A stretch of DNA of 64,000 bases, from contig JBQCGD010000138.1 of NCBI GenBank assembly GCA_051955985.1, forward strand, positions 15,786-79,785. Reading direction: 5' to 3'. Shown piece after piece: positions 9,396 through 53,081 of this stretch. Position numbers and translations under genes: made by a program. A model generated the notes under the pieces. That model saw only the letters and a program-made list of their open reading frames with translations. It did no database searches and had not been told where the DNA came from. Each line of letters starts with the position of its first letter. Within the stretch, counting starts at the first letter, position 1. This DNA is from Phycisphaerae bacterium (GTDB lineage Bacteria > Planctomycetota > Phycisphaerae > WQYP01).

Positions 9396-9396
9396 G

Positions 9397-9581: not shown

Positions 9582-9600
9582 TGGTTGGTTTTTGCAAATT

Positions 9601-39076: not shown

Positions 39077-39100
39077 GGCCGACGAGGGCGTCGGCCCCAC
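39077..39100 (-). repeat. REP-like hairpin with GTGG foot
   Basis: Minus strand GTGG-ggccgacg-ccct-cgtcggcc. Confidence 0.5.
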
Positions 39101-39468
39101 CTGGTGCAAAAGGAAGGGCACCCGGCGGAGCGGTGACGCCGCCGGGTGCTGAGGAAGGAAGAACTGGCATGTGGAAAGCGTCGGCGAGCTAGTGGGAGGT
39201 AGGAGCGAGGCCAACGCGTGTTCGCTTTGAGCCGCGAACGAGGCACTGCAAACTTGGAATGCCGGCGAGAATTCAAAGTCCCGTTTCCGGGGCCGCGATT
39301 TCTCGCCGACGGAAGAGAGGTAAAACAAAGGGCGTGCCAGACATTGGGAATGGGGCGTGGAAGTTTTTTTGGAGGCGAGATGGGGCGAGTTGTCGTTGTT
39401 TGGGCGGCGCGTGGGGAGCAAACTGCGGCGGGACGCGTTGAAAGCGGGGATGGCGTTGTTGTGCTCGG

Positions 39469-41841
39469 TCATGGCGTCGCCCCTCCTGGTTTTTGGACTT
39501 CGCGCAGCCAGAGGGCGGTGGTGATGAGGCGGGGGTAGTACTTGGAGCCGCGGGCTTCGCCGTTGACGATCTGGTCGCACGCACACCAGTAGGCGGCGGG
39601 GCCGGTGGTGAGCCAGCGGACGTGGGCGGCGTCGGCACGTTCCCATCCGGTGGCGGCGGGGTATCGGGTTTCGGGTGTCGGGGTTCGGGTGTTGCCGTCT
39701 TCGTCGAGGTTGAAGAGGGAGCGGGCGACGTGCTGGACGATGGCGATTTTGGAGAGCCAGGAGTTGTTGGAGGTGGAGGAGAGTTTGATGCCGTGGTCGG
39801 GGAATTTGTTGCGGTGCTGGGGGTCGGAGAGGAGGGTGATGGTGTGGGTTCGGAGGGACGAAATCATTTTTGCGGTGCCCGTTTCGGCTGCATAGCTTCC
39901 ACCGGCAAACTTGACGGGTAGTGATGAGACATAGTCGGCGAGAGTGGAACCGCCGCGTGCGATCGAAGATTCGTTCCAATAGAGAGGATATTTCAAGGCT
40001 TCGATCGCGGGGAGTATGCGGGAGGGCTGTGTCGATCCAAAGATTGCGGCCAGAAAATTCTCGCTGTGCATCTGCGAGGCGATGGTCGCGGCACATGTAT
40101 CTGAATGGTCAAACAGGGTCGCGCTATTCACGAGCGGCCCAAGGGGGTCGGGCGCGCTTACTTCACAAATCAGGTCCAAACCTTTGTAAGCGGCCCAGCA
40201 TTTCACAGCCAGGTAAAGGTTGTTTCGGGCTTGGCCAAGTGAGGCGTCGAGCGAATCGAATGTCGTGATCTCGCTGCCACTTCCACACATCGCCGTGTCA
40301 TGCTGCATGATCCCTTTGCCGTCGCGTTTGGCGGCGCTGTCGCGGTTTCGCATGCTGAGGTAACAGTCTCTGAAGACGTCAGCATTTCTTTTTGCCCACT
40401 CGGCGTCACCGGTTTTGGCGACGTAGCTGGCGGCGATGAGGAGCCAGTTGCAGAGTTGTTCCTGGGTCATGTAGGAGAAGCAGCCGGTGAGGTTTTTGAG
40501 TTCGTAGGAGGATTGGCCGAAGGGGGAGAATTGGTTGTGGGTGCCCTGGTCGTGGGTGAAGGAGATTCCTCCCGGTGCCGTCTTTGGAACCACGGAGTTC
40601 ACGGAGGGCACGGAGTTCCTGTCTCCCAACGTCTCCGTGTTCTCCGTGGTTCCATTCATCTTCACCTGGTCGGTGTAACTGTAGCGCTTGAGGAAGTTGT
40701 CGAGGAGGTTTTTGACGACCCAGGGGTTTCGGTCCAGTTCCCAGAAGACGTGGTCGACGGCGAGGTCGAGGGTGTTCATCATGCAGTATTCGCCTTCGTT
40801 TACGATCCAGTAGGGTTCGTCCTCAATTTCGAGGAGCTGGGTGTTGGCGTAGTAACTGCGGGTTGCGTGGGCGATGAGGAATTGCTGGTTTTCGCTGAGG
40901 CCGGAATTGGCAAGCTGCTTGTCTTGTGATTTGGCGAGTTGTTTGAGGTCGCAGAAGCGGTCGAGGGCGGCGTTGAGGACGTCTTCGATGTTTTTGTAAT
41001 GGCGCGTGTAGAGGTAGCGCCCCTCCAGCCTCGTGGTCACGACTTCGGGGAAGTAGCAGGCGAGGGCGAGGTGGAGGGTGTAGCGTTTGCCGGGGGGGAC
41101 TTCGAAGCCGATGCCGGGGGTGGTGCCGAGGAGATGGACGGGGTTGGCGCGGTCTTCGAGGCCTTCGTGGGGCCACCAGCGGAGGAAGGGGAAGGGGGTG
41201 GGCGAGCTGATTTTGGGGTGGGCGGGGCAGCCTTTTTCGGGCATGTCGTAGAGTTCGGCGGCGAAGGCGTAGTTGGCGCGGTGGGCGAGGCCGATGCGAC
41301 CGGGGGAGAGGGTTTCGAGGAGGCGGTTACCGGCATCCTGAAAGTTGATAGAGAAGAAGCCGGTCTTGGTGGCGGTGCCGGGGCGGTTGTCGATGATGAG
41401 TTCGGCGGTGATGGCGGGGAGGAGGGCGGATTTCAGTTGGTCGAGAGTGGCGGTGGCGGGGTCGGGGAGGTCGATGAACGGGGTGTAGAGGCTGAATTCC
41501 ATTGTGCCGTCGTTTGTTGTCCAGCGGTCGGTGGACCAGCCGTACTCGCGGGTGAGTTCGGATTCGGCGAAGGGGGAGAAAGTTTGGCGGTCTTCATTTT
41601 CCTTTTGCGGCAGGAAGGCGGCGGTGGGGTCGATTTTGTCGGCGTTGTTGAAGAAGGGGAGAACGCGGAGCGGGGCGGGGCTGTGGACGGACGCGTCCTT
41701 GTACCCGATGAAGAGGTCCTGGTTGGCCGGTTTCCCCAGCTGCGCCGCCAGTCCCCCACGCGTCCCAAAGTGCCCGCACGTAAACGTCAGGTACGCCCCC
41801 GCCGGCGAATGATGGGCATTGAAATTGACCGGAAACCCCAT
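39469..41841 (-). CDS. Glycoside hydrolase family 52 (beta-xylosidase)
   Basis: FNAHHSPAGA, VNEGEYCMMNTLDL.VD, GGISFTHD.G, EITTFDSLDASLGQARNNLYLAVK, SNNSWLSKI, KYYPR. Confidence 0.92.
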   Translation of the reverse strand: MGFPVNFNAHHSPAGAYLTFTCGHFGTRGGLAAQLGKPANQDLFIGYKDASVHSPAPLRVLPFFNNADKIDPTAAFLPQKENEDRQTFSPFAESELTREYGWSTDRWTTNDGTMEFSLYTPFIDLPDPATATLDQLKSALLPAITAELIIDNRPGTATKTGFFSINFQDAGNRLLETLSPGRIGLAHRANYAFAAELYDMPEKGCPAHPKISSPTPFPFLRWWPHEGLEDRANPVHLLGTTPGIGFEVPPGKRYTLHLALACYFPEVVTTRLEGRYLYTRHYKNIEDVLNAALDRFCDLKQLAKSQDKQLANSGLSENQQFLIAHATRSYYANTQLLEIEDEPYWIVNEGEYCMMNTLDLAVDHVFWELDRNPWVVKNLLDNFLKRYSYTDQVKMNGTTENTETLGDRNSVPSVNSVVPKTAPGGISFTHDQGTHNQFSPFGQSSYELKNLTGCFSYMTQEQLCNWLLIAASYVAKTGDAEWAKRNADVFRDCYLSMRNRDSAAKRDGKGIMQHDTAMCGSGSEITTFDSLDASLGQARNNLYLAVKCWAAYKGLDLICEVSAPDPLGPLVNSATLFDHSDTCAATIASQMHSENFLAAIFGSTQPSRILPAIEALKYPLYWNESSIARGGSTLADYVSSLPVKFAGGSYAAETGTAKMISSLRTHTITLLSDPQHRNKFPDHGIKLSSTSNNSWLSKIAIVQHVARSLFNLDEDGNTRTPTPETRYPAATGWERADAAHVRWLTTGPAAYWCACDQIVNGEARGSKYYPRLITTALWLREVQKPGGATP
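40586..40653. repeat. 68-bp palindromic repeat element inserted in frame in the GH52 gene
   Basis: Perfect 12-bp terminal inverted repeats ggaaccacggag...ctccgtggttcc with internal cacggag units; encodes GTTENTETLGDRNSVPSVNSVVP. Confidence 0.75.
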
Positions 41842-41955
41842 GCAAATTCCTCCACCGCAAACTCTTACATCGAATCCCTACTATTCCTATAGGAATAGGG
41901 AGGAGACCGCCAATGACGTACACACGTTTGGCGGTCTGGGTCTTCACCGCGTCCA

Positions 41956-42708
41956 TCATCCCTCTCTCGTCACCACCAGCGACGCAGGATCGATCTTCGC
42001 CACCACCGGCATCGCGTCGATCTTCGCACAGTGATCGATGTCGTCCTCAAGGCCGGCCTCAATGATGTTGATCGCCCCCTGGCCGAGGCGGAGTGCGGCG
42101 GGGAGGCGGGGGCGCACGGCGGAGAAGGCGTGGTAGGCGAGCCAGGCGGTGTCGGTGAAGGGGAGGTCGGCGCGGTAGGTGTGGGCGAGGAGGGAGAAGA
42201 GGATGGCGCCGGCGCCGAGGGAGTCTTCGAGGGCGAGTTTGCCGTTGGTGCCTGCGCAGATGAGGAGGGTGTGGCCTCCGGCGGTGTCGAGGTTTTCGGC
42301 GAGGGCCTTGGCGGTGGCGGTGGCGTTGAGGAGGCTTGCGGCGAACATGTGTTTCGCGGTGCGGGCGCGGGTGGCGGCGCGGGTGCCGTTGGTGGTGGCG
42401 AGGAGGAGGGTGGCGCCGCCGATTTTTTCGGTGGTGTGTTCGCGGGGGGAGTTGCCGAGGTCGAAGTCGGCGGGTTTGAGGCATTGGGTTTCGCCGGCAG
42501 CGATGAGGGGGGCGGGGAACTGGTTGGACGATTTGGCGGCGCGGACGGCGTCGAGGGAGTCGAACAGGTGGACTTCGCGGGCGCCGTTGAAGAGGGCGGT
42601 GGTGATGGTGGAGGTGGCGCGGAGGACGTCGAGGATGACGACCTGGGATTGGGGGAGGAGGTCGTGGGCGTTGGCGAGGTCGGCGGGGGTGAGGAGGACG
42701 TCGATCAT
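41956..42708 (-). CDS. comB: 2-phosphosulfolactate phosphatase family (ComB-like)
   Basis: VILDVLRATSTI, DLGNSP, TTNGTRA, LEDSLGAGA. Confidence 0.85.
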   Translation of the reverse strand: MIDVLLTPADLANAHDLLPQSQVVILDVLRATSTITTALFNGAREVHLFDSLDAVRAAKSSNQFPAPLIAAGETQCLKPADFDLGNSPREHTTEKIGGATLLLATTNGTRAATRARTAKHMFAASLLNATATAKALAENLDTAGGHTLLICAGTNGKLALEDSLGAGAILFSLLAHTYRADLPFTDTAWLAYHAFSAVRPRLPAALRLGQGAINIIEAGLEDDIDHCAKIDAMPVVAKIDPASLVVTREG

Positions 42709-42797
42709 GGTTTGGTGCTCCGGGAAAGGGGAACATTATAGGGAGGATGACGACTGCAGGCTTTGAAACGTGTCCGGGAATTTTGTTGGGCGGCGAA

Positions 42798-42835
42798 AAT
42801 CGATCATCCCCACCGCGTGGAAGCCGTGGGCTTGG
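42798..42835 (-). repeat. REP-like hairpin, copy 3
   Basis: Minus strand ccaagcccacggc-ttccac-gcggtggggatgatcga. Confidence 0.75.
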
Positions 42836-42921
42836 CGCAGTGGGTGCTTGCGGATCAATGAGTGGCGGCGGGAGGGGTCGTGGGATAAGGTGAGGGAGTT
42901 GTTTGTCTTTGCTGTGAGGGT

Positions 42922-44268
42922 GTGATGGCGCGGGTTTGTTTTGTGCTGGTGGCGGGGTTGGATGGGGAGGTTTTGGGGAGGGGGAGCGGGCTTTCGGTGT
43001 TGGGCGGGTTTGGGCATCGGGGGAGTTATGAGCCGGTGTTTCCGGCGGTGACATCGACGATGCAGGCGACGTTGACGACGGGGGTGGGGGTGAGTGGGCA
43101 TGGGATTGTTTGTAATGGGGTGTATACGCATGGGCGGGCGGAGATGCGGCCGCATTTGGATTTGAGCAATCATGCGGAATCGCGATTGAAGGTGAGTTTT
43201 TGGGAGCAGGCGAATTCTTTGGTGCAGGCGCCACGGTTTTGGGAGGGGCTTGGGAAAAAGACGGCGATGCTGTTCTGGCAGAATTCGATGCCGTCGCTGG
43301 CGAGCGAGCGTGCGGCGGCGGACGTGGTGTTGACGCCGAAGCCGGTGCATACGGCGGATGGGAAGACGCTGACGGCGTGCTGGAGCGCTCCGGGGGATTT
43401 GTACGGGCGGCTGGCGAATGAGCTGGGGCCGTTTCCGCTGCACAAGTATTGGAGCCCGATGGCGGGGATTGAGAGTTCGGAGTGGATTGCGAAGGCGGCG
43501 GAGCGGGTGTGGCGGCGGGAGAAGCCGGAGTTGCAGCTCGTATACATTCCGCATCTGGATTACAACCTGCAGCGGTTTGGGCCGAGTGGGGAGATGATTG
43601 GGAAGGACGTGGGGGAGGTGGATCGGGTGCTGGGGCCGCTGGCGGAGCGGGTGCGGGCGGATGGGGGGATTTTTGTGGTGGCGGGGGATTATGGGATTTC
43701 GGAGGTGGGGATTTGTGCGATGCCGAATTTGGCGCTGCGCGAGGCGGGGTTGCTGGTGACGACGGTGGATGGGAGTGGGAAGGTGGTGGTGGATTATGAC
43801 GCATCGGCTGCGTTTGGGATGTGCGATCACCAGGTGGGGCATGTGTATGTGCGGGAGCGGCGGGAAGAGGTTGAAGCGGTTTTGCGCGGGGTGAACGGTG
43901 TGGGGCGGGTGCTAGCGACGAAGGAGGAAATTGCGAGCGTTGGGTTGGATCATGCGCGAAGCGGGGATGTGGTGTTGATGGCGGAGCCGGGGGCGTGGTT
44001 TGCGCATGATTGGTGGAAGGATGATGGGGAGAAGCCGTTGTGGCAGTTCACGGTGGATATACACAACAAGCCCGGGTTTGATCCGCGGGAGTTGTTTTTC
44101 GATCCGGTGCGGAAGTGCATTCAGCAGGATGCGGCGGTGGTGAGAGGGTCGCACGGGGTGGTTGGGGCGAGGGAGAAGTGGCCGGTGGTGTTGAGTGATG
44201 CGGCGTTGCCTGGGGGGGAGATGCGTGCAACAGATATCGCGGGTTGGTTGAAATCGCTGGTGGCTTGA
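42922..44268 (+). CDS. Alkaline-phosphatase-superfamily nucleotide pyrophosphatase/phosphodiesterase (EboF-like)
   Basis: PVFPAVT...QAT.TTG, HGIVCNG, LVYIPHLDY, DIHNKPGFDPRELF, RGSHG. Confidence 0.85.
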   Translation: MMARVCFVLVAGLDGEVLGRGSGLSVLGGFGHRGSYEPVFPAVTSTMQATLTTGVGVSGHGIVCNGVYTHGRAEMRPHLDLSNHAESRLKVSFWEQANSLVQAPRFWEGLGKKTAMLFWQNSMPSLASERAAADVVLTPKPVHTADGKTLTACWSAPGDLYGRLANELGPFPLHKYWSPMAGIESSEWIAKAAERVWRREKPELQLVYIPHLDYNLQRFGPSGEMIGKDVGEVDRVLGPLAERVRADGGIFVVAGDYGISEVGICAMPNLALREAGLLVTTVDGSGKVVVDYDASAAFGMCDHQVGHVYVRERREEVEAVLRGVNGVGRVLATKEEIASVGLDHARSGDVVLMAEPGAWFAHDWWKDDGEKPLWQFTVDIHNKPGFDPRELFFDPVRKCIQQDAAVVRGSHGVVGAREKWPVVLSDAALPGGEMRATDIAGWLKSLVA

Positions 44269-44399
44269 CGGATCGATCGCCAGGGCGAAAAGATGCAGGG
44301 CGGGGCGGAGCTGTCTCAAAATAGGAGTTCCGCCTAGAATGCGGGATTCTCGCATCGCGAGCGCGATGGGGCGTTGTTTTTGGCGTAAGGAGCCTGACT

Positions 44400-45668
44400 A
44401 TGAATTTGCCGCCGCCGGTGTATTTGACGAAGGACTTGCCGGGGATTGGTGGGGTGATCAAGCAGCATTTGGAGGATTTCCGCGTCGAGGAGATTCCCGC
44501 GTACAAGGCGGAGGGGGTAGGGACGCATTGTTATCTGAAGATTGAGAAGCGTGGTTTCTCGACGATGGCGGCGGCGGACATTCTGGCGAAGGCGCTGGGT
44601 CGGAAGAACATGGACATCGGGTATGCGGGGCTGAAGGACAAGCAGGCGATCACGACGCAGTGGTTTTCGGTGGAGCACCTGGAGACGGCGCGCGCGAAGG
44701 CGCTGGAGTTGCCGACGGGGATGAAGGTGGTGGAGATCACGCGGCACCGGAACAAGATCAAGCGGGGGCACTTGGCGGGGAACAAGTTCTGGATCAAGGT
44801 GCGGAATGCGGAGTGGAGCCGCGCGGGGGCGAGCCTGGAGGAGCCGGCGAAGAAGGCGGAGGCCATTTTGAAATCGCTGGAGAAGACGGGGGTTCCGAAC
44901 TTTTTCGGGCCGCAGCGGTTTGGGATGCGGCGGGACAATCATCTGCTGGGGTTGGCGCTCTTGAAGGGGGACGCGAAGGAGTTTGCGGATCGGTTCCTGG
45001 GGGATCCGGATGAATCGGTGGATCATGGCGGGGTGCTGGCGGCGCGGCGGTCGTATGAGAACAAGAATTACGAGGCGGCGCTGCACCAGTGGCCGGGACA
45101 TTTGCGGGATGAGCGGGCGGCGCTTTCGGCGATGGTGAAGGGGAAGGGGAATGCGAAGCGGGCGATGTTTGCGGTGAAGCTGGAGCTGAAGAAGCTGCTG
45201 GTCAGTGCGCTGCAGTCGTATTTGTTCAACAAGGTGCTGGAGCGGCGGTTGCCGCGGATGACGACGGTGTTGCCGGGAGATTATTGCTGGAAGCATGAGA
45301 ATGGGGCGGTGTTCCTGGTGCCGGGGGATCCGGATGCGGCGGCGAAGGAGCAGCCGCGGGCGGATGCGCATGAGATCTCGCCGACGGGGCCGCTGTTTGG
45401 GTTTCGGATGTCGCAGGCCGAATCGGTGGCGGGGATTCTGGAGGCGGAGGTGTTGAAGGAGTCGGGGTTGACGCTGGAGAGTTTTGGCGGGGCGATGGGG
45501 GCGCCGGGGGGAAGAAGGGCGTTGCGGTTGTTTCCGATGGATCTATCGCTGGCGACGGGGGAGGATTCGCATGGGCCGTATTTGGAGCTGGTGTTTGGGT
45601 TGCCTTCGGGGAGTTATGCGACGGTGCTTTTGGGCGAGGTGATGAAGGAGGATGTGACGATTGATTGA
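44400..45668 (+). CDS. truD: tRNA pseudouridine(13) synthase
   Basis: EDFRVEE, GYAGLKDKQAITTQ, GHLAGNKF, PNFFGPQRFG, SALQSYLFN, LP.GSYATVLL. Confidence 0.95.
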   Translation: MNLPPPVYLTKDLPGIGGVIKQHLEDFRVEEIPAYKAEGVGTHCYLKIEKRGFSTMAAADILAKALGRKNMDIGYAGLKDKQAITTQWFSVEHLETARAKALELPTGMKVVEITRHRNKIKRGHLAGNKFWIKVRNAEWSRAGASLEEPAKKAEAILKSLEKTGVPNFFGPQRFGMRRDNHLLGLALLKGDAKEFADRFLGDPDESVDHGGVLAARRSYENKNYEAALHQWPGHLRDERAALSAMVKGKGNAKRAMFAVKLELKKLLVSALQSYLFNKVLERRLPRMTTVLPGDYCWKHENGAVFLVPGDPDAAAKEQPRADAHEISPTGPLFGFRMSQAESVAGILEAEVLKESGLTLESFGGAMGAPGGRRALRLFPMDLSLATGEDSHGPYLELVFGLPSGSYATVLLGEVMKEDVTID

Positions 45669-45718
45669 GGGAGTATCCAAACAATTTTAATTTGAGGGAT
45701 GATTTCTTGCCTCTGTCG

Positions 45719-46180
45719 ATGGAAGAATCCGAGACCAGATTCTTTGTTTCGCGCGGTGACATACGATGGGTTAGAGTTCTGGCTCTTTGCAATGGCATCG
45801 CGGGGATTCTTTTGGGATCCCTGGTACTGGCGGCTGGATTCTATATCCTCTACAGCTTAATCACCGGTAAGATCCGGGCTGGTGATGCAGGCGTCGTGTT
45901 GTTTTTTTGTGCGATCTACGTGATTCCGAACTTTGGATGCGGAATCCTCAATACAGTGGGATTCTGCAAAATTAAAAGCACCACGTCCCGCTGGCGCATG
46001 CTGATGTGGGTTGCTACCATTTTTCATCTCTTTTTCATGACGGCGTGGCTTGGCATGATCGTCTTCCTGTTCATCACTGACGCTGAATCGCTGGCGACTC
46101 CATTTGCCATCACGGCACTTTTGATTGTCTCACTTTCGGCCGAATTGCGTTACCTCTGGCTCACGCGACCACCTTCGTAA
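45719..46180 (+). CDS. Hypothetical 4-TM membrane protein, AT-richer than neighbours
   Basis: Four hydrophobic segments; abrupt composition change after the truD stop. Confidence 0.65.
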   Translation: MEESETRFFVSRGDIRWVRVLALCNGIAGILLGSLVLAAGFYILYSLITGKIRAGDAGVVLFFCAIYVIPNFGCGILNTVGFCKIKSTTSRWRMLMWVATIFHLFFMTAWLGMIVFLFITDAESLATPFAITALLIVSLSAELRYLWLTRPPS

Positions 46181-46330
46181 CGGGCTTAGCTCAATTCGCG
46201 GCTCGAAATGCAAAGTGTCTATGCAGGCATATGAGGCGCGGGTTAAGCACCGAGATTGTGATTAACTCGTGGCACCCGGCCTTCTTGATTGCGCGTTGGA
46301 GCGTTCGCCATTGGCTCGCGGCTAAACGGG

Positions 46331-46648
46331 TCAGGGTTTTTCGGCGAGTTGTTTTTGGAGGCGTTCGACTTCAGCGATCAGGCGTTTGATGTATTCCGGG
46401 GCGTAAGCGGCGAAGGCGGTGTTGCGGACCATGGTCATGAGGGGGTCGGTGCCGACCATGGCGCCGGCGGGTTGCATGGTTTGAAGCACGAGGACGCCGG
46501 CGCCGGTTTGGACGCCCATGACTTTGCCGTGGGAGGGCTTCCAGTTGCCGGCGGCGGCGAGGCCGTTGACGGCGTTTTTGAGCTCGGTGAGTTCTTTTTC
46601 GGTGAGGGGGGAATCGGAGGGGAGGGCGATGTGGGGGAATGCGATCAT
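46331..46648 (-). CDS. Small hypothetical protein; C-terminal helix resembles phage Ead/Ea22-like motifs
   Basis: 105 aa; ...TAFAAYAPEYIKRLIAEVERLQ; co-oriented 20 nt downstream of the BFD-like gene. Confidence 0.6.
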   Translation of the reverse strand: MIAFPHIALPSDSPLTEKELTELKNAVNGLAAAGNWKPSHGKVMGVQTGAGVLVLQTMQPAGAMVGTDPLMTMVRNTAFAAYAPEYIKRLIAEVERLQKQLAEKP

Positions 46649-46668
46649 GGGCGTATCCTCGTAAAGTG

Positions 46669-47004
46669 TCAGAGGCCGTTGGTTTCGCCGGGGGGCGGTG
46701 TGCCGCGGCCTTCGGCGATGTATTGTTTGCGGCTGTTGCGGTAGGTGTCGGCGTCGATGTTTTCATCGTCGCGCGGGGAGGCGGGGGAATCGTCGGTCTT
46801 TCGCCACCAGGGGATATGTTCGCCGCAGAGGCGTTTGTGGATTTTTTTGAGCATGGGGACGCACCAGCCGCAGCCGGTGCCGGCGGAGAGGCATTCGGAG
46901 ATCTGGGAGGGGACTTTGGGTTTTTCGACGTTGCAGAAGGTTTCAATCTTGCGCCGTTTAACACTAAAGCAGTAACAGATAATGTCATCGGGATTTAGGG
47001 CCAT
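46669..47004 (-). CDS. BFD-like [2Fe-2S]-binding protein (5' end supplied by the insert)
   Basis: IICYCF...AGTGCGWC (C-x-C...C-x2-C). Confidence 0.85.
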   Translation of the reverse strand: MALNPDDIICYCFSVKRRKIETFCNVEKPKVPSQISECLSAGTGCGWCVPMLKKIHKRLCGEHIPWWRKTDDSPASPRDDENIDADTYRNSRKQYIAEGRGTPPPGETNGL

Positions 47005-47137
47005 AGAATTCATTCTATTGATCTGGCATCAAAAAGGCACGTTGAGCGGTTTTGAGGGAGGGCGTATTGGCTTGCAGAGCAGCGTTGGGCGAAAAACAAT
47101 ATCATGCTGGCGGCCATGACCTCGAAGGAACACAAAA

Positions 47138-47542
47138 ATGGATCAACACCTTGTTCCCGTTCGCAACGAAATTGCTGTGATGGCAAGCGACCTTTATACG
47201 GTGATTGGCGTTCCTTTCGAGCGAACATCAGAGCTTCAGCGGCAAATTCTGGCGACATTTGCCTTCGGCATGATCTTCGCCGTTGGACAACTGCGGCGTT
47301 TGTCGCCTCCGGAAGTCCACGTTCTTGCCATTGCGTGTCTGATGGACGTTTTCAAGTACGCCGATCATCAGGCTGCAGCTTTCTCTGCCGACTTGATTGT
47401 GCATGCTTCAAGTAAGAATCCGAAGGACACGCACAAAGCAATTATTCATCGCGGCATAGACGGCCATCGCCAATGGCAACAGAAGCAGAATGATCAACTC
47501 AAGATCAATATTGAAGGGATCTTTGAGGCGCTGAAAGTCTGA
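47138..47542 (+). CDS. Putative polymorphic-toxin immunity protein (Imm48-like), orphan
   Basis: All-helical 134 aa with IIHRGIDGH (HRG motif, from recollection of the Imm48 family); AT-richer than host genes. Confidence 0.55.
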   Translation: MDQHLVPVRNEIAVMASDLYTVIGVPFERTSELQRQILATFAFGMIFAVGQLRRLSPPEVHVLAIACLMDVFKYADHQAAAFSADLIVHASSKNPKDTHKAIIHRGIDGHRQWQQKQNDQLKINIEGIFEALKV

Positions 47543-47564
47543 GGTTCGCCATACCACCGCAATG

Positions 47565-47633
47565 AAACGTCTCGATCTTGCGGAGCGAAACGTCGAAGCA
47601 GAAGCAGACGGTGTCGTCGGGTTTGAGGGCCAT
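47565..47633 (-). pseudogene. Displaced original 5' end of the BFD-like gene
   Basis: Encodes MALKPDDTVCFCFDVSLRKIETF, 16/23 identical to the N-terminus of 46669-47004, then diverges and stops at codon 43. Confidence 0.85.
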
Positions 47634-47659
47634 GGGGAGAGTTTAGCACGGCGTGACGG

Positions 47660-47736
47660 GTAATTGGTAATTTGTAATTGGTAATTGGGAGGGGCGGGGA
47701 GGCGCCAGCCGTTACGAATTACCAGTTACCAATTAC
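47660..47736. repeat. GTAATTG heptamer arrays in inverted arrangement
   Basis: gtaattggtaatttgtaattggtaattg ... aattaccagttaccaattac; could fold back as a hairpin at the 3' end of the Gfo/Idh/MocA gene. Confidence 0.75.
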
Positions 47737-48806
47737 AGCCTCACCGCGGCGCCGGTCTCGTTGCTTTTGTAGATGGCGGCGACGAGCTGCGTGACCTGGC
47801 GGCCGGCGTCGGTGGTGATGAGCGGCGGGCGGCGGTCGATGGCGGCGCGGAGGAAGTCCTGGATTTGCAGGCCGTGGTAGTGGGCGATGGGGTCGATGGC
47901 GTTGAAGAAGTCGGTGTCTTCTTTTTTCCATTGGGCGAGGAGGTGTTCTTCGCCGGGGATGGTCCAGAGGTCGTTGAGGGGGGGCTCGGTGATTTTGGAC
48001 ATGCCGGGGACGAACATGGTGCCGCCGTCGGTTTGCACGCCGATGGACGCGCCGGTGTGGCCGTTGACTTGCACGCGGCCGTAGAGGGCGGGGTTGACGG
48101 AGTTGGAGACGAGGATCTGGCCGAGGGCGCCGGACTTGAAGCGGAGGACGGCCATGGCGGTGTCTTCGACTTCGATGTAGGGGTGATTGAGGTTGGCCCA
48201 CATGGCCATGACTTCGGCGACGGGGCCCATGTACCAGAGGAGAAGGTCGAGCTGGTGCGGGGCCTGGTTGATGAGGACGCCGCCGCCTTCGCCTTTCCAG
48301 GAGCCGCGCCAGGGGTCGGAGGTGTAGTATTTTTCGTCGCGCCAGCCGTACATGGCGACAACGCCGAAGATCGGTTTGCCGATTTTGCCTGCGTCGATCG
48401 CGCGGCGGATGCGCTGGGCGGGCTCGTAGAAGCGGCGTTGGGAGACGACGGCGACGGTGACTTGGTGTTGCTTTTGGGCGGCAATGATGCGGTCGCAATC
48501 TTCGACGGTCGCGGCGAGGGGTTTTTCGATAAGGACGTGAATGCCGGCGTTGATGCAGGCGATGGCGGGGTCGGCATGCTGGGGGTGGGGCGTGCAGATG
48601 CAGACAGCGTCGGGTTTGGCATCGCGGATGAGCTGCTCGGTGGAGTCGAAGGCCTTGACGTTGTACTTGTCGGCGAACGCCTGGGCGCGATCGAGATGGC
48701 GGCTGGCGACGGCGACGAAGTGGGATTCGGGTAGCGATTGGAGCGCGGCCGCGAAGACGTGGGCGACTTTGCCGGTGCCGATGATGGCGGTTTTCAGTTT
48801 TTGCAT
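47733..48806 (-). CDS. Gfo/Idh/MocA family oxidoreductase
   Basis: AIIGTGKVA, ICTPHPQH, LIEKPLA, GGGVLINQAPHQLD. Confidence 0.92.
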   Translation of the reverse strand: MQKLKTAIIGTGKVAHVFAAALQSLPESHFVAVASRHLDRAQAFADKYNVKAFDSTEQLIRDAKPDAVCICTPHPQHADPAIACINAGIHVLIEKPLAATVEDCDRIIAAQKQHQVTVAVVSQRRFYEPAQRIRRAIDAGKIGKPIFGVVAMYGWRDEKYYTSDPWRGSWKGEGGGVLINQAPHQLDLLLWYMGPVAEVMAMWANLNHPYIEVEDTAMAVLRFKSGALGQILVSNSVNPALYGRVQVNGHTGASIGVQTDGGTMFVPGMSKITEPPLNDLWTIPGEEHLLAQWKKEDTDFFNAIDPIAHYHGLQIQDFLRAAIDRRPPLITTDAGRQVTQLVAAIYKSNETGAAVRL

Positions 48807-48827
48807 GGTTTCGACTCGACGAACTTA

Positions 48828-48886
48828 AACACGAAGAGCACTAAGGCACGAAGAATTTGACACCGAGGACACAGAGGGGCACAGAG
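48828..48886. repeat. Intergenic 'CACGAAG/CACAGAG' repeat element
   Basis: aacacgaagagcactaaggcacgaag...caccgaggacacagaggggcacagag. Confidence 0.65.
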
Positions 48887-48896
48887 TTTCTTTATT

Positions 48897-49940
48897 TTAG
48901 GGGGTAAGGAGGACTTTGAGGAGTGCGGGGTCTTTGTTGTAGAGGCGGTCGAAATACGTTGGGCCTTGGTCGAGGGGGGCGGTGGCGCTGATGAGGGAGG
49001 CGACGTTTACTTTTTTGGTGGCGAGGAGGTCGATGCAGGTGGGGTATTCGCCGTTGGAGGCGGCGGTGCCGAGGAGGGTGAGTTCGCGCGTGACGACGGA
49101 TTGGAGGGGGAGGGGGACGGTTGGGGAGACGTTGCCGACGAGGACGATGGTGGCGCCTTTTCTGGCGGCGGTGATGGCGGTGTGGATGGAGGGGCCGGCG
49201 CCGACGGCTTCGAAGACGAGGTCGAGGCCGCCGTGGGTGAGGCCGTGGATTTGTTGGACGAGATCGGGGGCGTTGGCGGGAAGGGTGTGGGTGGCGCCGG
49301 CGGTTTTTGCGGTCTGGAGGCGGGCGGGGTCGATGTCGGTGGCGAGGAGGGTGGAGACGCCGGCGACGCGGAGGGTTTGGAGGAGGAGCTGGCCGATCAT
49401 GCCGGCGCCGACGACGAGCGCGGATTTCCCGAGGAGGCCGGTGGGCGTGGCGCTCGCGGCGCGGGAGAGGGCGTGCACGGCGATGGAGACCGGTTCGATC
49501 ATCGCGGCGTGTTCGAAGGAGAGACTGTCCGGCAGGTGATAGGCGATGCGCACCGGGATCGTCGCGAACTCGGCAAAACAGCCGTGCTGCCGGTATTCGT
49601 TGCAGGAGACGCCGAGGACCCGGCGGTTGTCGCAGAGGTTGATGCGGCCGGCGCGGCAGTAGGCGCAGTGGCCGCAGGAGATGGTCGAGTCGAAGGTGAT
49701 GCGATCGCCGGGCTTGAAATCGCGGACGTTCGATCCGCACTTCTCGACGATGCCCGCGGCTTCGTGGCCCATGACGATCGGCGGAATGCGGCGGCCGGTG
49801 GAGCCGTCGTAGCCGTGAACATCCGAACCGCAGATGCCGCAGGTCTTGATGCGGACGAGGAGGTCATCGGGGCCGAACTCCGGGATGGGCATGTCGGCGA
49901 GTTCGAGTTTTTTCCTGTCGGTGAGGAGGAGTGCCTTCAT
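48897..49940 (-). CDS. Zn-dependent alcohol dehydrogenase (galactitol-1-P/sorbitol dehydrogenase-like)
   Basis: CGICGSDVH, MGHEAAG, CGHCAYCRAGRINLC, VGAGMIG. Confidence 0.92.
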   Translation of the reverse strand: MKALLLTDRKKLELADMPIPEFGPDDLLVRIKTCGICGSDVHGYDGSTGRRIPPIVMGHEAAGIVEKCGSNVRDFKPGDRITFDSTISCGHCAYCRAGRINLCDNRRVLGVSCNEYRQHGCFAEFATIPVRIAYHLPDSLSFEHAAMIEPVSIAVHALSRAASATPTGLLGKSALVVGAGMIGQLLLQTLRVAGVSTLLATDIDPARLQTAKTAGATHTLPANAPDLVQQIHGLTHGGLDLVFEAVGAGPSIHTAITAARKGATIVLVGNVSPTVPLPLQSVVTRELTLLGTAASNGEYPTCIDLLATKKVNVASLISATAPLDQGPTYFDRLYNKDPALLKVLLTP

Positions 49941-51289
49941 GAATAGCTCGCTTCTGAGAGTTCCGGCGAAAGGACTGCGGGCGTCAGGGTGGGTGACAAC
50001 AGGTGGATGATCGCCACGGAAAGGATATAGGCGATGCCCGCGCAGAAGAAGGGGGCGTAGTAGTTGTGGGAGTACTGGACCCAGTAGCCGGTGAAGAGCT
50101 GGAAGAGGGACGCGCCGACGTAGCCGAAGAAGCCGCCGAACCCGGCGACGCTGGCGACGGCGTTTTGCGGGAAGAGGTCGCTGCAGAGGGTGTAGATGTT
50201 GCTGGAGAAGCCCTGGTGTCCGGCGGTGGCGAGGCCGACGACGAGGACGACGAGCCAGAGGTGGTGGAGCATGGGGGCGAGGATGATCGGGAGGGCGAGG
50301 GCGCCGAAGAGAAGCATGGCGGATTTGCGGGCGACGTTGACGGAGCGGCCGTGCTTCAGCAGGGTGGAGGAGAGCGCGCCGCCGCCGAGAGCGCCGAGGT
50401 CGGCCATGAGATAGATGGTGACGAGCGGCCAGCCGAGGTCGGCGAGCTGGAGGTGATAGGGATTGCCGCTGAAGAACTTGGGAATCCAGGTCATGAAGAA
50501 CCACCAGATGCCGTCGGAGAGGAATTTGCCCGCGACGAAGACCCAGGCCTGGCGGTATTGAACGATGTGCGTCCAGGGAAGCTTGATGGCGGGTTCGGGT
50601 GGATCACTTTTGATCAGGGCGAGTTCTTCTTGAGAAACCCACGGATCGTTTTCCGGGCAGCGGTAGAAGGGGAGCCAAATGAGGGCGAGGAGCAGCCCGA
50701 GGGCGCCGGTATAGACGAAAGCCGACTGCCAGCCGAAGCGAAGCGTGAGCCACGGGACGATCAATGGCGTGGTGATGGCGGCCATGTTGGCGCCGGCGTT
50801 GACGAAGCCGAAGGCAAAGGCGCGCTGGCGTCGCGGGAACCACTCGGCGCAGACCTTTGCCGCGCCGGGAAAGGAGGGGGATTCGGCGAGGCCGAGCGCG
50901 GCGCGGAAGGTGGCGAAGGAGAGAGGCCCGGCGCCCAGGGCGGTGAGCATGGCGCAGGCCGACCACGCTACAAGAGCGAGGCCGTAGCCGAGGCGGGTGC
51001 CGATGCGATCGAGGAGGCGGCCGGCGCCGATCTGGCCGAAGGCGTAGGCGATGGCGAACGCGGAGCCGATCATGCCGTACTCGGCATCGGAGATGGAGAA
51101 TCTGGCCTGGAGGTCGGGGGCAAGGAGGGCGATGACGAGGCGGTCGATGTAATTGATGGTGATGGCGAAGAAGAGAAGGGCGAGGATGATCCAGCGGAGC
51201 GGGAAGCGCGCGGATCGGCGGGAATGATCGAGAGGCTGCTCCACGGGAATCCTTTTGCGGGGCGAGAGGTGCACGCGTATAACCCGCAT
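49937..51289 (-). CDS. MFS transporter, ExuT/hexuronate-like; start approximate
   Basis: RWIIL.LLF.AITINYIDR, FRAALGLAES, WFPRRQRA, WFFMTWIP. Confidence 0.9.
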   Translation of the reverse strand: MRVIRVHLSPRKRIPVEQPLDHSRRSARFPLRWIILALLFFAITINYIDRLVIALLAPDLQARFSISDAEYGMIGSAFAIAYAFGQIGAGRLLDRIGTRLGYGLALVAWSACAMLTALGAGPLSFATFRAALGLAESPSFPGAAKVCAEWFPRRQRAFAFGFVNAGANMAAITTPLIVPWLTLRFGWQSAFVYTGALGLLLALIWLPFYRCPENDPWVSQEELALIKSDPPEPAIKLPWTHIVQYRQAWVFVAGKFLSDGIWWFFMTWIPKFFSGNPYHLQLADLGWPLVTIYLMADLGALGGGALSSTLLKHGRSVNVARKSAMLLFGALALPIILAPMLHHLWLVVLVVGLATAGHQGFSSNIYTLCSDLFPQNAVASVAGFGGFFGYVGASLFQLFTGYWVQYSHNYYAPFFCAGIAYILSVAIIHLLSPTLTPAVLSPELSEASYS

Positions 51290-51309
51290 GGTCGCCGAGG
51301 AGCACGCGG

Positions 51310-51891
51310 GTGCCAACACAAAAAACGGATTACCGGGTGGAATCTTTCAGGAGCGCGGAGGCGTTTCGCGCGTGGATGGAGCGGGAGCATGAACGCTGCC
51401 CCGGCGTGTGGGTGCGGTTTTTCAAGAAGGTTTCGGCGAAGGAGACCGTGAGATACGCGGAGGCGCTGGATGTGGCGCTGTGTTTTGGGTGGATCGACGG
51501 GCAGGTCAAGCCGCTGGATGCCGAATCGTACCTGCAGAAGTTCACCCCGCGGCGCGCACGAAGCACGTGGTCGAAGCGGAACGTGACGCATGTCGAGCGG
51601 TTGATTCGCGACGGTCTGATGCGGCCGGCCGGGCTGGCGGCCGTGGAGGCGGCGAAGAAGGATGGCCGCTGGGAGGCGGCATACGATTCGCCGCGGAACA
51701 TGCAGGTGCCGGCGGATTTCCTGGCGAGATTGCGGAAGGAAAAGAAGGCGTACGCGTTCTTTGAGTCGCTGACGCGCGCCAATGTGTACGCCATTGCCTA
51801 TCGGCTGCAGACGGCGAAAAAGGCGGAGACTCGGGAGCGGCGGATGGTTGCGATTCTGGAGATGATGCGGCGCGGCGAAAAGTTTCACTGA
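51310..51891 (+). CDS. YdeI/OmpD-associated family protein
   Basis: ALDVALCFGWIDG, FTPRRARSTWS..N, GRWEAAYD, KKAETRERR. Confidence 0.88.
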   Translation: MPTQKTDYRVESFRSAEAFRAWMEREHERCPGVWVRFFKKVSAKETVRYAEALDVALCFGWIDGQVKPLDAESYLQKFTPRRARSTWSKRNVTHVERLIRDGLMRPAGLAAVEAAKKDGRWEAAYDSPRNMQVPADFLARLRKEKKAYAFFESLTRANVYAIAYRLQTAKKAETRERRMVAILEMMRRGEKFH

Positions 51892-51943
51892 CTGGCCGCC
51901 GTCCACGGTATTCATCACGAAGGACCACAAAGAGGTTTTGCAG

Positions 51944-52486
51944 ATGGCGAAAGTTGCGGCGTTCTTGCGGGGAATCAATGTCGGCGGGAAGGTGATGGTG
52001 CCGATGGCGGAATTGAAGAAAGCCGTCGAGAGCCTGGGGTATGCCAAGGTGATGACGGTGCTGAACAGCGGGAACCTGGTCTTTGAGGCCGGTCCGAAGA
52101 AGAGCGCCGCGGTCGAGAAGGAACTGGAGGGGGCGATTGCGAAGCGGTTCGGGCTGGCCGTGGAGGTGATGGTGCGCGGGGCGGCCGAGATGGAGCGCGT
52201 GGTCGCGGAGAACCCGTTTAAGCGCGAGGCGCAGGAGGATCCGAGTCACCTGGTGGTGTTGTTCTTGAAAGAGGCGGCAGGAAGGGAGCGGGCGGAGCGA
52301 CTGCGTGCGGCCATCAAGGGGCGGGAACGGGTGGAGGCGAAAGGACGGGAGATTTTCGCGGTCTATCCGGATGGCATCGGGAAGTCCAAACTGACAAATG
52401 GGGTGATTGAAAAGGCGGTGGAAGCGCGGGCGACGGGTCGGAATTGGAACACGGTCGTGAAGTTGGCGGGGTTGCTTCAGGGGTGA
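51944..52486 (+). CDS. DUF1697 family protein
   Basis: AAFLRGINVGG, V.TVLNSGNLVF, T.RNWNTV.KL. Confidence 0.88.
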   Translation: MAKVAAFLRGINVGGKVMVPMAELKKAVESLGYAKVMTVLNSGNLVFEAGPKKSAAVEKELEGAIAKRFGLAVEVMVRGAAEMERVVAENPFKREAQEDPSHLVVLFLKEAAGRERAERLRAAIKGRERVEAKGREIFAVYPDGIGKSKLTNGVIEKAVEARATGRNWNTVVKLAGLLQG

Positions 52487-52616
52487 GCGGGGCGCTTTCG
52501 TTCAACGATGGCCGTTGCTTTGGGCGAGGAGTTTTTAACTTGTCCGGGAGCGAGGTCCTTCAAGCAGCGTGGTCCATTTCGTCTTTTGTGGCTTTGCGGT
52601 TTTGATTCCCATGGGG

Positions 52617-53081
52617 TCACCGCATCTCCGCCATCAACTCCACTTCGACCGCTGCATTGAGGGGAAGCGCATTGGTACCGACGGCGGCCCGGGCGTGCTT
52701 GCCGGCATCCCCGAAGACGGCGACGAGGAGGTCGGAAGCCCCGTTGGCCACCTTGGGCTGGGCGTCGAAGCCGTCGGCAGATTGCACGAAAACGCCGATG
52801 CGAAGGATGCGGGCGACGTTGTCGAGGTTGCCGCCACAAGCGTCGCGCAGGACGGCCAGGGCATTGAGCGTGCACAGCTTCGCCGCTTCAATCCCCTGCT
52901 CAATGGAGAGAGCAGTGGGGATGGGCCCGGCGAATTGGACCTTGCCGTCTTTGGACGGAAGCTGCCCGGAGATAATGATGAGGTTGCCCGCGTGAACGAA
53001 CGGGACGTAGGAGGCGACGGGCTTTGGGGCCGGCGGCAGGGTGAGGTTGAGCCGTTGGAGGGCGGCATCGATCTGCGACAT
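52617..53081 (-). CDS. RidA/YjgF family protein
   Basis: [52 protein letters not shown]. Confidence 0.9.

What the first reader, a model, noticed from the sequence alone, without database searches (positions are those of the whole stretch)
46669..47645. Minimal insert that split a BFD-like [2Fe-2S] gene and rebuilt its 5' end and promoter
Seen: the first 23 codons of the BFD-like gene occur twice on the minus strand. The dead copy (47633-47565, MALKPDDTVCFCFDVSLRKIETF) has host-like C-ending codons and a TGcTAAACT -10 box 6 nt before its ATG. The live copy (47004-46936, MALNPDDIICYCFSVKRRKIETF) has AT-rich synonymous codons and its own TAGAAT box 7 nt upstream, then switches to host codon style. 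The best shared DNA is cgcaagat at the crossover. The ~630 bp between carries only an AT-rich Imm48-like immunity gene in the opposite orientation. Established: integrative elements that target protein-coding genes can restore the target with a diverged replacement end. Inference: this is a decayed island or a cassette-like element using the bfd 5' end as attachment site, with no integrase left. I do not know bfd-like genes as a described integration target, so relatives may carry an uncharacterised island family here.
Basis: partly seen in the sequence, partly recalled or inferred. Interest (0 to 1): 0.72.

Follow-up and report, generated by a model that had tools for sequence, protein, structure and literature searches.

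The report
Mini-island rebuilding a ferredoxin gene start
A 629-base piece of foreign DNA, carrying one orphan anti-toxin (immunity) gene plus a spare promoter and gene start, sits in the first codons of a small iron-sulfur protein gene of a soil planctomycete. Close relatives have the same spot empty or filled with other cargo, so it looks like a reusable docking site served by a recombinase encoded elsewhere.

Summary
The first 23 codons of the BFD-like gene occur twice on the minus strand, 629 bp apart (68 nt, 71% identical). Only an Imm48 gene lies between them (Pfam E=1.4e-25).

- **Empty sites:** Syntenic relatives L004 and L005 have one intact gene whose start matches the dead copy. Contigs from four other runs, 96-99% identical in the flanks, join 46942 directly to 47572. 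The insert is therefore exactly 629 bp (46943-47571), with the crossover in the GA of codon 21.
- **Element arm:** Past the crossover the insert still mimics codons 21-23. The element thus carries a bfd look-alike on both sides of the exchange point, which is the topology of a circle integrated by one crossover.
- **Not a misassembly:** Four independent assemblies span both junctions at 100% identity.
- **Third allele:** Runs X6-X9 keep both arms but hold unrelated cargo.
- **Foreign origin:** The insert has GC 0.50 and GC skew 0, against 0.63 and +0.3 in the flanks.
- **Missing parts:** There is no recombinase gene and no integron attC site.

Best reading (about 0.6): a site-specific, integrase-less mini-island or cassette. 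It uses the RKIETF-coding core of bfd as its attachment site and restores the gene, as dusA islands do. It is a new variant of a known kind.

The parts
46669..46942 (-). Host-derived body of the live BFD-like gene (nt 63-336, codons 21-111 and stop)
   Evidence: This stretch has the C-ending host codon style, +40.7 bits over codons 24-46. It is continuous with the dead copy in the empty-site contigs. It is 78-84% identical in DNA to L004 and L005.
46943..47004 (-). Element-derived replacement 5' end of the gene (nt 1-62; MALNPDDIICYCFSVKRRKIE), the attR arm
   Evidence: It has GC 0.42 and AT-rich codons, -13.3 bits over codons 2-17. It is absent from the empty-site contigs. Its closest relative is the 5' end of L119, at 76.8% nt and 20/23 aa, not the syntenic relatives at 64-67%. 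It is conserved in the X6-X9 strain with three changes, all at third codon positions.
47005..47137 (.). Element intergenic region with divergent promoter-like boxes. TAGAAT at 47012-47017(-) would serve the rebuilt gene and TAGAAT at 47004-47009(+) faces Imm48. Together they form the palindrome TAGAAT-TC-ATTCTA.
   Evidence: Read from the sequence. The promoter scan finds ATGTCA-16-TAGAAT on the + strand at 46982-47009. The X6-X9 allele keeps the match only up to 47010 and differs beyond that. Promoter function is inferred.
47138..47542 (+). Orphan Imm48 immunity gene (134 aa), the only cargo
   Evidence: Pfam Imm48 at 89.9 bits, E=1.4e-25. GC is 0.50 and GC skew 0.00, against 0.62-0.64 and +0.29 to +0.38 in the flanks. 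The best homologues are at most 80% identical and come from Gemmataceae, Acidobacteriaceae and soil metagenomes. There is no toxin gene beside it.
47543..47571 (.). Element tail. It consists of 22 nt after the Imm48 stop plus 7 nt (47571-47565, minus strand G ACG TTT) that still mimic bfd codons 21-23, so the bfd look-alike continues past the crossover.
   Evidence: The tail is absent from the empty-site contigs, whose sequence there is A ACC TTC. Dead codons 21-23 score -5.0 bits, which is insert-like. The X6-X9 allele diverges from the window exactly at 47571.
47572..47633 (-). Host-derived orphaned 5' end (nt 1-62 of the native gene), the attL arm. It reads on into the insert as a 42-codon dead ORF (47505-47633).
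   Evidence: It matches the N-termini of relatives at 20-21 of 23 residues and has host codon style at +17.2 bits. It is joined directly to 46942 in the empty-site contigs.
47640..47648 (-). Native -10-like box TGCTAAACT, 6 nt before the dead ATG
   Evidence: The same box lies before the intact gene in L004, L005 and L006: ctcctgYtaaact, then 6 nt, then ATG. Function is inferred.

Best explanation
A small foreign DNA circle integrated by one site-specific crossover into codon 21 of the host BFD-like [2Fe-2S] gene. The circle carried three things: an Imm48 immunity gene, a promoter region, and a 69-nt look-alike of the first 23 codons of a bfd-like gene. The exchange took place inside a conserved core. 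The host site is CGCAAGATCGA|AACCTTC and the element site is CGCAAGATTGA|GACGTTT; this core encodes RKIETF. Integration orphaned the host promoter and the first 62 nt of the gene. These now form the outer boundary of the insert. The element's own promoter and first 62 nt were fused in frame to the rest of the gene. The protein stays intact, including the C-x-C pair that by the family pattern supplies two of the four cluster ligands.

The element encodes no recombinase, so the enzyme must act in trans from elsewhere in the genome or from a helper element. The same site is empty in near-identical strains and holds other cargo between the same two arms in another strain, so it behaves as a reusable attachment site.

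Shown: the anatomy, the exact 629-bp boundaries, the foreign origin, the empty allele, a third allele with different cargo, and the reality of both junctions. Inferred: the circular intermediate, the recombinase, current mobility, and the role of the cargo as protection against a competitor's toxin.
For: 1. Empty sites. L004 and L005 are syntenic (MFS, ADH, GFO/IDH/MocA, bfd, 105-aa gene, TruD) and have 57-75 nt between GFO and one intact bfd. Contigs of X10, X12, X13 and X14, 96-99% identical in the flanks, join 46942 to 47572, skipping 629 bases with 2 ambiguous letters. Joining the flanks gives an open 111-aa frame that is closer to the relatives than the live protein is: 99, 98 and 96 of 111 against 95, 92 and 90.
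2. Crossover position. It is bracketed by the dead/live differences at nt 60 and nt 63. Beyond it the insert continues with G ACG TT, a bfd mimic. Codon log-odds agree: live codons 21-23 score +4.4 bits (host-like) and dead codons 21-23 score -5.0 bits (insert-like). Both junctions therefore fall at the same host nucleotide, as expected for a single reciprocal crossover of a circle.
3. Recurrence. In X6-X9 the live-type arm (three synonymous changes) and the dead arm are both present, but 47011-47571 is replaced by unrelated sequence of at least 556 nt and 595 nt from the two sides. In that allele attL and attR share AAGATCGAAACCTT. The flanks of this filled allele and of the empty allele carry the same SNPs relative to the window. 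Presence or absence therefore varies within one close lineage.
4. Foreign origin. GC is 0.42-0.50 and GC skew about 0, against 0.62-0.64 and +0.3 in the flanks. The live arm is closest to another lineage's bfd start, L119.
5. Too little homology for RecA. The arms are 71% identical and the longest identical run is 8 nt.
6. Junctions are real. Four independent assemblies are 100% identical across them, and a fifth study holds the Imm48-to-dead-copy junction.
7. Precedent. dusA islands replace the 5' end of dusA and leave the original 5' end as the island boundary, with imperfect attL and attR repeats (PMC4482086).
Against: No recombinase gene lies in the insert or within the syntenic +/-6 kb. 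No circular form or excision event has been observed. The empty allele may simply be ancestral. The cargo of the third allele is known only from contig ends and 30-nt loose ends, and the linkage of its two arms in one genome is inferred. None of 110 other Imm48 loci and none of about 10 other bfd loci shows a second bfd start. No bfd mimic was found in viral contigs, phages or plasmids. No autonomous parent element is therefore known. The host and element cores differ at 3 of 14 positions in the window's allele, which many tyrosine recombinases would tolerate poorly.
Confidence: 0.6

Rival explanations
1. No dedicated recombinase is involved. Instead, DNA taken up from another Phycisphaerae-like lineage, in which an accessory gene lies upstream of its own bfd, was joined to the host by illegitimate or micro-homology recombination. 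This would be a '5'-end displacement', analogous to C-terminal displacement at Rhs and CDI loci. The resulting allele, and alleles with other cargo, then spread among relatives by ordinary homologous recombination in the conserved flanks.
For: There is no recombinase, no attC site and no terminal inverted repeats in the insert. The live arm and its TAGAAT box resemble real bfd starts of other lineages, L119 and L120.
Against: Both junctions fall on the same host dinucleotide with no base lost or duplicated. That is a coincidence for two independent joints. The host-style codons resume at codon 21, so no long homologous anchor lies inside the import. A second cargo ends at the same place, after ACC TT of codon 23, and a possible third does too. 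The longest identity between the arms is 8 nt, far below what RecA needs.
Confidence: 0.25
2. The insert is an integron gene cassette placed by an integron integrase at a secondary (attG-type) site inside bfd.
For: Imm48 genes do travel as integron cassettes elsewhere. They are flanked by classic attC sites (RYYYAAC ... GTTRRRY) in L076, L082, L092/L094, L097/L098 and L101. The size of 629 bp is typical of a cassette. Insertion of cassettes at non-classical genomic sites is described in the literature (papers found; not read in detail).
Against: A strict attC scan finds nothing in the insert or anywhere in the 64-kb window. The circular junction does not fold better than shuffled sequence (z -0.2 and -1.1). 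The crossover is at GA|A, not G|TT. An integron cassette would not carry a 69-nt copy of the target gene's start plus a promoter.
Confidence: 0.04
3. The pattern is an ordinary tandem duplication or an old paralogue pair that decayed, or else an assembly artefact.
For: Only the bare fact that 23 codons occur twice.
Against: The relatives and near-identical strains have a single gene at this locus. The copy that is dead is the host-like one, and the live copy is the diverged one with foreign composition. Four independent assemblies span both junctions at 100% identity.
Confidence: 0.01

Closest known systems
dusA-specific genomic islands and prophages with DAI tyrosine integrases (Farrugia et al. 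2015, PMC4482086)
   Same: Both integrate inside the 5' end of a conserved housekeeping gene. In both, the element supplies a new 5' end and upstream region, and the original 5' end is left as the outer boundary. Both have imperfect attL and attR direct repeats around a short conserved core, and both carry variable cargo.
   Different: The target here is a BFD-like ferredoxin gene, not dusA. The insert is 629 bp with one gene and no integrase, whereas dusA islands are kilobases to tens of kilobases and always carry the integrase. Excision has not been shown here.
Prophages e14 and phage 21 in icd, and similar elements that carry a substitute gene end
   Same: The element carries a diverged replacement for the part of the target gene that it displaces. 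The host gene therefore stays functional and a dead fragment remains.
   Different: Those elements replace the 3' end, are full prophages or remnants with an integrase, and occur in Enterobacteria.
CIMEs, cis-mobilisable elements: att-flanked units without recombination genes, derived from ICEs or IMEs (from my own knowledge)
   Same: Both are flanked by attL-like and attR-like repeats and have no recombinase of their own. Both are presumed to depend on a related element's integrase in trans.
   Different: CIMEs are described in Firmicutes at tRNA or 3' gene ends and are several kb long. No parent element is known here.
Integron gene cassettes and recombinase-associated orphan immunity arrays (rAID-type clusters of Bacteroidales; the latter from my own knowledge)
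   Same: Both are single-gene units of about 0.5-1 kb carrying orphan immunity genes, and both show exchangeable cargo at a fixed site. Imm48 genes are integron cassettes in several loci.
   Different: There is no attC, no attI and no adjacent recombinase here. The attachment arm is a coding-sequence mimic that rebuilds the target gene.

Membership tests
Gene-end-restoring site-specific integrative elements (dusA-island type) | Inserted within the 5' end of a conserved gene, with an empty site in relatives | tested here: met
   The insert lies at codon 21. Empty sites are seen in L004 and L005 and in near-identical strains.
Gene-end-restoring site-specific integrative elements (dusA-island type) | The element supplies a replacement 5' end and promoter, and the original 5' end forms the boundary | tested here: met
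   Shown. The live frame is intact and the dead copy is host-like.
Gene-end-restoring site-specific integrative elements (dusA-island type) | Imperfect attL and attR repeats share a core at which exchange occurs | tested here: met
   The core CGSAAGATYGARACSTT occurs only at the two junctions. The crossover is bracketed to nt 61-62.
Gene-end-restoring site-specific integrative elements (dusA-island type) | Encodes its own integrase next to an att site | tested here: not met
   The only ORF with a family match in the 629 bp is Imm48. I therefore do not file it as an autonomous island, only as working like one.
Gene-end-restoring site-specific integrative elements (dusA-island type) | Excises as a circle and restores the target | not testable with these tools
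   Only assembled contigs of public runs were available. They show an empty allele but not an excision event.
Integron gene cassette | attC site (R'' RYYYAAC ... R' GTTRRRY, folded) at the 3' end of the cassette | tested here: not met
   There is no attC-like site in the insert or the window. The junction fold has z -0.2 and -1.1.
Integron gene cassette | Crossover at G|TT of the target | tested here: not met
   The junction is ...ATCGA|AACC....
Imm48 immunity protein family (PF15574) | Profile match above the curated cut-off | tested here: met
   89.9 bits against a cut-off of 25, covering profile positions 6-123 of 123.
Imm48 immunity protein family (PF15574) | Adjacent cognate polymorphic toxin | tested here: not met
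   There is no toxin gene in the insert or the flanks, so this is an orphan immunity gene. Homologues in L007, L008 and L044 are also solitary.
BFD-like [2Fe-2S] domain protein (PF04324) | Profile match above the cut-off and four Cys (C-x-C ... C-x-x-C) | tested here: met
   32.5 bits against a cut-off of 26. C10, C12, C45 and C48 are present, and the first pair lies in the replaced segment and is kept in both versions. Ligand assignment follows the family pattern. No PDB relative was found by sequence.
Transposon or MITE | Terminal inverted repeats and a target-site duplication | tested here: not met
   The termini GACGTTTCATT... and ...GCAAGATTGA are not inverted repeats. The 68-nt repeat is 71% identical and of two different origins, so it is not a duplication made on insertion.

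The most novel reading that the evidence does not exclude
This could be a previously undescribed cassette system that is not an integron. In it, small circular single-gene cassettes, carrying orphan immunity genes and other cargo, would each bear a recoded copy of the first 23 codons and the promoter of a conserved bfd-like gene as their attachment arm. A trans-acting recombinase would swap them in and out at the RKIETF-coding core. The host gene would always be rebuilt, and the locus would serve as an exchangeable slot for interbacterial-defence genes in soil planctomycetes.
Probability: 0.25. Interest if true: 0.8.

Novelty: new variant of a known kind. Interest (0 to 1): 0.55.

Why it matters
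Site-specific islands that repair the gene they split are known, but as large elements that carry their own integrase. Here the same logic appears in a 629-bp unit with one gene and no recombinase. The target, a bfd-like gene, has not been reported as an integration site: I found no paper linking bfd to one. Three allelic states (empty, Imm48, other cargo) occur among closely related rhizosphere strains.

If the unit is mobilised in trans, it is a minimal vehicle for spreading orphan immunity genes, the 'acquired interbacterial defence' of soil communities. It would also point to a recombinase whose site lies in a conserved coding motif, which could be useful as a safe-harbour integration system for planctomycetes.

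Even on the conservative reading, the case is clean and nucleotide-resolved. It shows how a gene start and promoter can be exchanged wholesale between lineages without loss of the gene.

Tried and rejected

**Searches for a second example.**
- About 110 Imm48 loci from genome and metagenome contigs: none has a bfd gene or bfd fragment nearby.
- Ten further bfd loci (L119-L127): none has a second N-terminus.
- Degenerate DNA patterns for the arm in viral contigs gave 0 hits.
- tblastn of Imm48 against plasmids and of Bfd against phages gave no match.
- A homologue search with the 179-aa gene upstream of L119's bfd found only two short-contig hits.

**Integron idea.** It was tested and rejected for this locus. 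It holds only for a minority (about 8 of 103) of other Imm48 loci.

**MITE or target-site-duplication idea.** Rejected: there are no terminal inverted repeats, and the repeats have two different origins.

**Second low-GC patch (45625-46300).** I looked for duplicated gene ends and found none.

**Codon style as locator of the crossover.** On its own it was ambiguous, because the relatives have GAG ACG at codons 21-22. The empty-site contigs settled it.

**Cargo of the X6-X9 allele.** It could not be fetched.

Full report
**What is there.**
- On the minus strand the order is: a GFO/IDH/MocA oxidoreductase gene (47733-48806); a palindromic repeat; a -10-like box TGCTAAACT; then 23 codons, MALKPDDTVCFCFDVSLRKIETF (47633-47565), that run out of the bfd frame into a 42-codon dead ORF.
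- Next, on the opposite strand, comes a 134-aa gene (47138-47542).
- After a 133-nt spacer that holds TAGAAT, the 111-aa BFD-like gene follows (47004-46669), starting MALNPDDIICYCFSVKRRKIETF.
- Pfam confirms Fer2_BFD for the live gene (32.5 bits, cut-off 26) and Imm48 for the gene in between (89.9 bits, E=1.4e-25).
- The repeat is 68 nt, 71% identical, with 629 nt start to start.
- It is not a chance match: tblastx of the flanks gives E about 1e-9. The 17-nt core CGSAAGATYGARACSTT occurs only at these two places in the window.

**Which copy is native.**
- The closest homologues of the protein (79-86% identical) all start MALKPDDT[VI]CFCFHV[SP]LRK[VI]ETF, like the dead copy. Of 118 homologues compared, only three have a start nearer to the live copy.
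- In DNA, the dead 69 nt are 78-83% identical to the syntenic relatives L004-L006, and the live 69 nt only 64-67%. The live arm is closest to L119 at 76.8%.
- Codon log-odds (host minus-strand genes against the Imm48 gene) are +17.2 bits for dead codons 2-17 and -13.3 bits for live codons 2-17. They reach +40.7 bits for the 23 codons that follow the live arm.
- The insert has GC 0.42-0.50 and GC skew about 0. It lies in a region of GC 0.62-0.64 and skew +0.3 to +0.4.
- The live start, the spacer and Imm48 are therefore foreign, and the dead start is the host's own.

**Empty sites.**
- L004 and L005 come from long metagenome contigs and share the gene order MFS, ADH, GFO, bfd, 105-aa gene, variable slot, TruD. 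They have 57-75 nt between GFO and a single intact bfd. The box ctcctgYtaaact lies 6 nt before the ATG, as it does before the dead copy.
- The decisive result came from public runs. Contigs in X10, X13 and X14 (RNA-seq libraries of root metagenomes) and X12 (DNA) match the window at 96-99% on both sides. They join 46942 directly to 47572, skipping 629 bases with 2 ambiguous letters.
- The empty allele is therefore dead-copy nt 1-62 followed by live-copy nt 63 onward: ...CGC AAG ATC GA|A ACC TTC TGC....
- Joining the flanks in a script gives an open 111-aa frame. It matches P0002, P0003 and P0004 at 99, 98 and 96 of 111 residues, against 95, 92 and 90 for the live protein.

**Where the exchange happened, and the topology.**
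- The two copies differ at nt 60 (C/T) and nt 63 (G/A). The empty allele has the dead copy's base at 60 and the live copy's base at 63, so the crossover lies in the GA between them.
- After it, the dead copy reads G ACG TTT. This is insert DNA, because it is absent from the empty allele, yet it still follows bfd codons 21-23. Its codon style is insert-like (-5.0 bits), while the live copy's GAA ACC TTC is host-like (+4.4 bits).
- The element thus carried a bfd look-alike on both sides of the exchange point. The element site is AAACGGCGCAAGATTGA|GACGTTTCATTGCGG and the host site is TCGCTCCGCAAGATCGA|AACCTTCTGCAACG.
- Both junctions fall on the same host nucleotide, with nothing lost or duplicated.
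- This is the outcome of one reciprocal crossover between a circle and the chromosome.
- The longest identical run between the arms is 8 nt, far too short for RecA. That points to a site-specific recombinase.
- A 2-nt overlap would fit a serine recombinase. An overlap of 7-8 nt (nt 61-68) with two mismatches, resolved by replication, would fit a heterology-tolerant tyrosine recombinase. I cannot tell which.

**Not an artefact, and polymorphic.**
- Logan assemblies of four rhizosphere runs (X1-X4) are 100% identical to the window across both junctions. One 4841-nt contig covers the whole region.
- A run from another study (X5) holds 47406-47627.
- No alternative joint is seen in those runs.

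**A third allele.**
- In X6-X9 (another study) one contig matches the 105-aa gene, the bfd body and the live-type arm up to 47010. The arm shows only three changes (46945, 46951, 46954), all at third codon positions.
- That contig then runs on for up to 556 nt of unrelated sequence, beginning ATTTTAACGTTTTCGGAGAGCGATAACCAT.
- Other contigs match GFO, the native box and the dead arm down to 47572. They then run on for up to 595 nt of unrelated sequence...AAATGTCACCCTGTGACGCCTGACAAGGTT.
- Nothing in these runs matches 47011-47571 at 80% or more.
- On the minus strand that dead arm reads ...AAG ATC GAA ACC TTG TCA GGC.... In this allele attL and attR therefore share AAGATCGAAACCTT, and the bfd homology again ends after the TT of codon 23.
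- The flanks of this filled allele and of the empty allele carry the same SNPs relative to the window, for example 46651, 46655, 46656, 46699, 46711, 46788, 46789, 46798 and 46816.
- Filled and empty states thus coexist within one close lineage, and the window's lineage (about 5% away) has a different cargo.
- That requires either two insertions at the same core or a precise excision. Both argue for site-specific recombination.
- Caveat: this allele is known only from contig ends. The linkage of its two arms is inferred from the shared flanks.
- One further 651-nt contig in X8 holds a bfd start with a different first six codons that also leaves the bfd frame after codon 23. It may be a third cargo junction, but the evidence is thin.

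**What is missing.**
- The insert holds no recombinase, and the syntenic 6 kb on either side hold none.
- Imm48 genes are classic integron cassettes in some other genomes: attC sites flank them in L076, L082, L092/L094, L097/L098 and L101.
- At this locus, however, a strict attC scan finds nothing in the window, the predicted circular junction folds no better than shuffled sequence, and the crossover is not at G|TT.
- There are no terminal inverted repeats.
- None of about 110 other Imm48 loci and none of ten other bfd loci shows a duplicated bfd start. Viral contigs, phages and plasmids gave nothing.
- The parent element is therefore unknown.

**Comparison with what is known.**
- The architecture is that of the dusA islands. 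[quoted passage not shown]
- The differences are the target, the size and the coding content. The target is a bfd-like gene; a full-text search found no paper linking bfd to an integration site. The size is 629 bp with one gene, and there is no integrase.
- That makes it either the smallest possible remnant of such an island or a cassette mobilised in trans, comparable in logic to CIMEs or integron cassettes.
- Three things favour a modular cassette over random decay: the clean content (one intact gene, no pseudogene debris), the sharp switch of cargo at both arms in the third allele, and the similar layout hinted at by that allele's loose ends. Those loose ends show a possible RBS and start about 30 nt from the live arm, and a TGA 17 nt before the dead arm.
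- This part is inference.

**Function.**
- The rebuilt gene keeps an open frame and the C-x-C pair. Seven of its first 23 residues differ from the native version, and its promoter is exchanged.
- In all lineages the -10-like box lies 6-7 nt before the ATG. This suggests a leaderless mRNA, which would explain why so short an arm suffices to rebuild expression (inference).
- Imm48 stands alone without a toxin, as do its homologues in L007, L008 and L044. That fits an orphan immunity gene kept for protection against competitors' toxins (inference from the family annotation).
- The native promoter still points into the insert, antisense to Imm48. The effect of this is unknown.

**Verdict.**
- Best explanation, at about 0.6: a site-specific, recombinase-less mini-island or cassette at a new attachment site.
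- Main rival, at about 0.25: recombinase-free displacement by imported DNA, followed by spread through flank homology.
- Novelty: a new variant of a known kind.

Noticed in passing
window 47655-47730: A palindromic repeat (gtaattggtaatttgtaattggtaattggg ... ttaccagttaccaattac) lies between GFO and the native bfd box. It is multi-copy in the genome. In run X1 its summed contig depth is 65 against 9 for the flanks, and at least 7 different contigs carry it. It is absent from the same spacer in L004 and L005, and it is replaced by 101 other letters in the empty-allele contig of X14.
   Followed up: partly
window 45625-46300: A second low-GC (0.49-0.53), zero-skew patch holds a 171-aa ORF (45665-46180, +) with no Pfam match. 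It lies between the 105-aa gene and TruD. This slot holds different genes in every relative: a 187-aa gene in L004, 137-aa and 71-aa genes in L005, and nothing in L006. No duplicated gene ends were found here.
   Followed up: partly
window 1-11000 and 38800-53000 (also L121, L006, L004): The GC skew is very strong and patchy: +0.3 to +0.58 in two blocks and about -0.1 to -0.3 in 14-37 kb. Minus-strand genes use C-ending codons and plus-strand genes G-ending codons, whatever the gene orientation. Relatives show the same order of skew (L121 -0.26 to -0.37 throughout; L006 up to +0.45). It seems to be a clade property and makes recent imports stand out.
   Followed up: partly
L007 5895-5965 and 6416-6486 (Gemmataceae chromosome OY969623): The Imm48 homologue there (75% identical) is also a solitary gene of about 520 bp. 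It lies between two intergenic direct repeats of 71 nt, 84.5% identical, with a 25-nt identical run. The left copy folds as a hairpin (z -2.4). This could be a second 'tiny Imm48 unit between diverged repeats', or a REP-like or attC-like element. It was not resolved.
   Followed up: partly
L076 570-672 / 1077-1179; L082 5882-5965 / 6399-6482; L097, L098, L092, L094, L101: In these metagenome loci Imm48 genes are flanked by classic integron attC sites (for example GCCTAAC ... GTTAGGC). Imm48 therefore circulates as an integron cassette in some lineages, about 8 of 103 loci tested.
   Followed up: yes
L006 5133-5776: In this 79%-identical relative a frameshifted SAM-methyltransferase gene lies between GFO and the bfd promoter, on the opposite strand, without any duplicated bfd start. 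The GFO-bfd spacer therefore takes up other DNA too.
   Followed up: no
L119 728-796: Another lineage's bfd (P0014) has a live-type start (MALNPDDIVCYCFHVNRRKIETF, 20/23 residues). GC3 is 0.41 in the first 23 codons against 0.73 in the rest. A divergent 179-aa secreted-protein gene lies upstream, and the contig ends inside it. This may be a further rebuilt gene or the arm's source lineage.
   Followed up: partly
run X8, 651-nt contig matching window 47570-47615: This contig holds a bfd start with different first codons (MPLRDD...) and a TACAAT box. It matches dead-copy codons 7-22 and then leaves the bfd frame after codon 23 (...GAG ACA TTT CTG CCG GCG...). It may be a further orphaned start with another cargo.
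   Followed up: no
window 47004-47017: TAGAAT-TC-ATTCTA is a perfect palindrome that gives a -10-like hexamer on each strand. One faces the rebuilt bfd and one faces Imm48. The X6-X9 allele keeps the plus-strand hexamer and has TAAAAT on the other strand.
   Followed up: no
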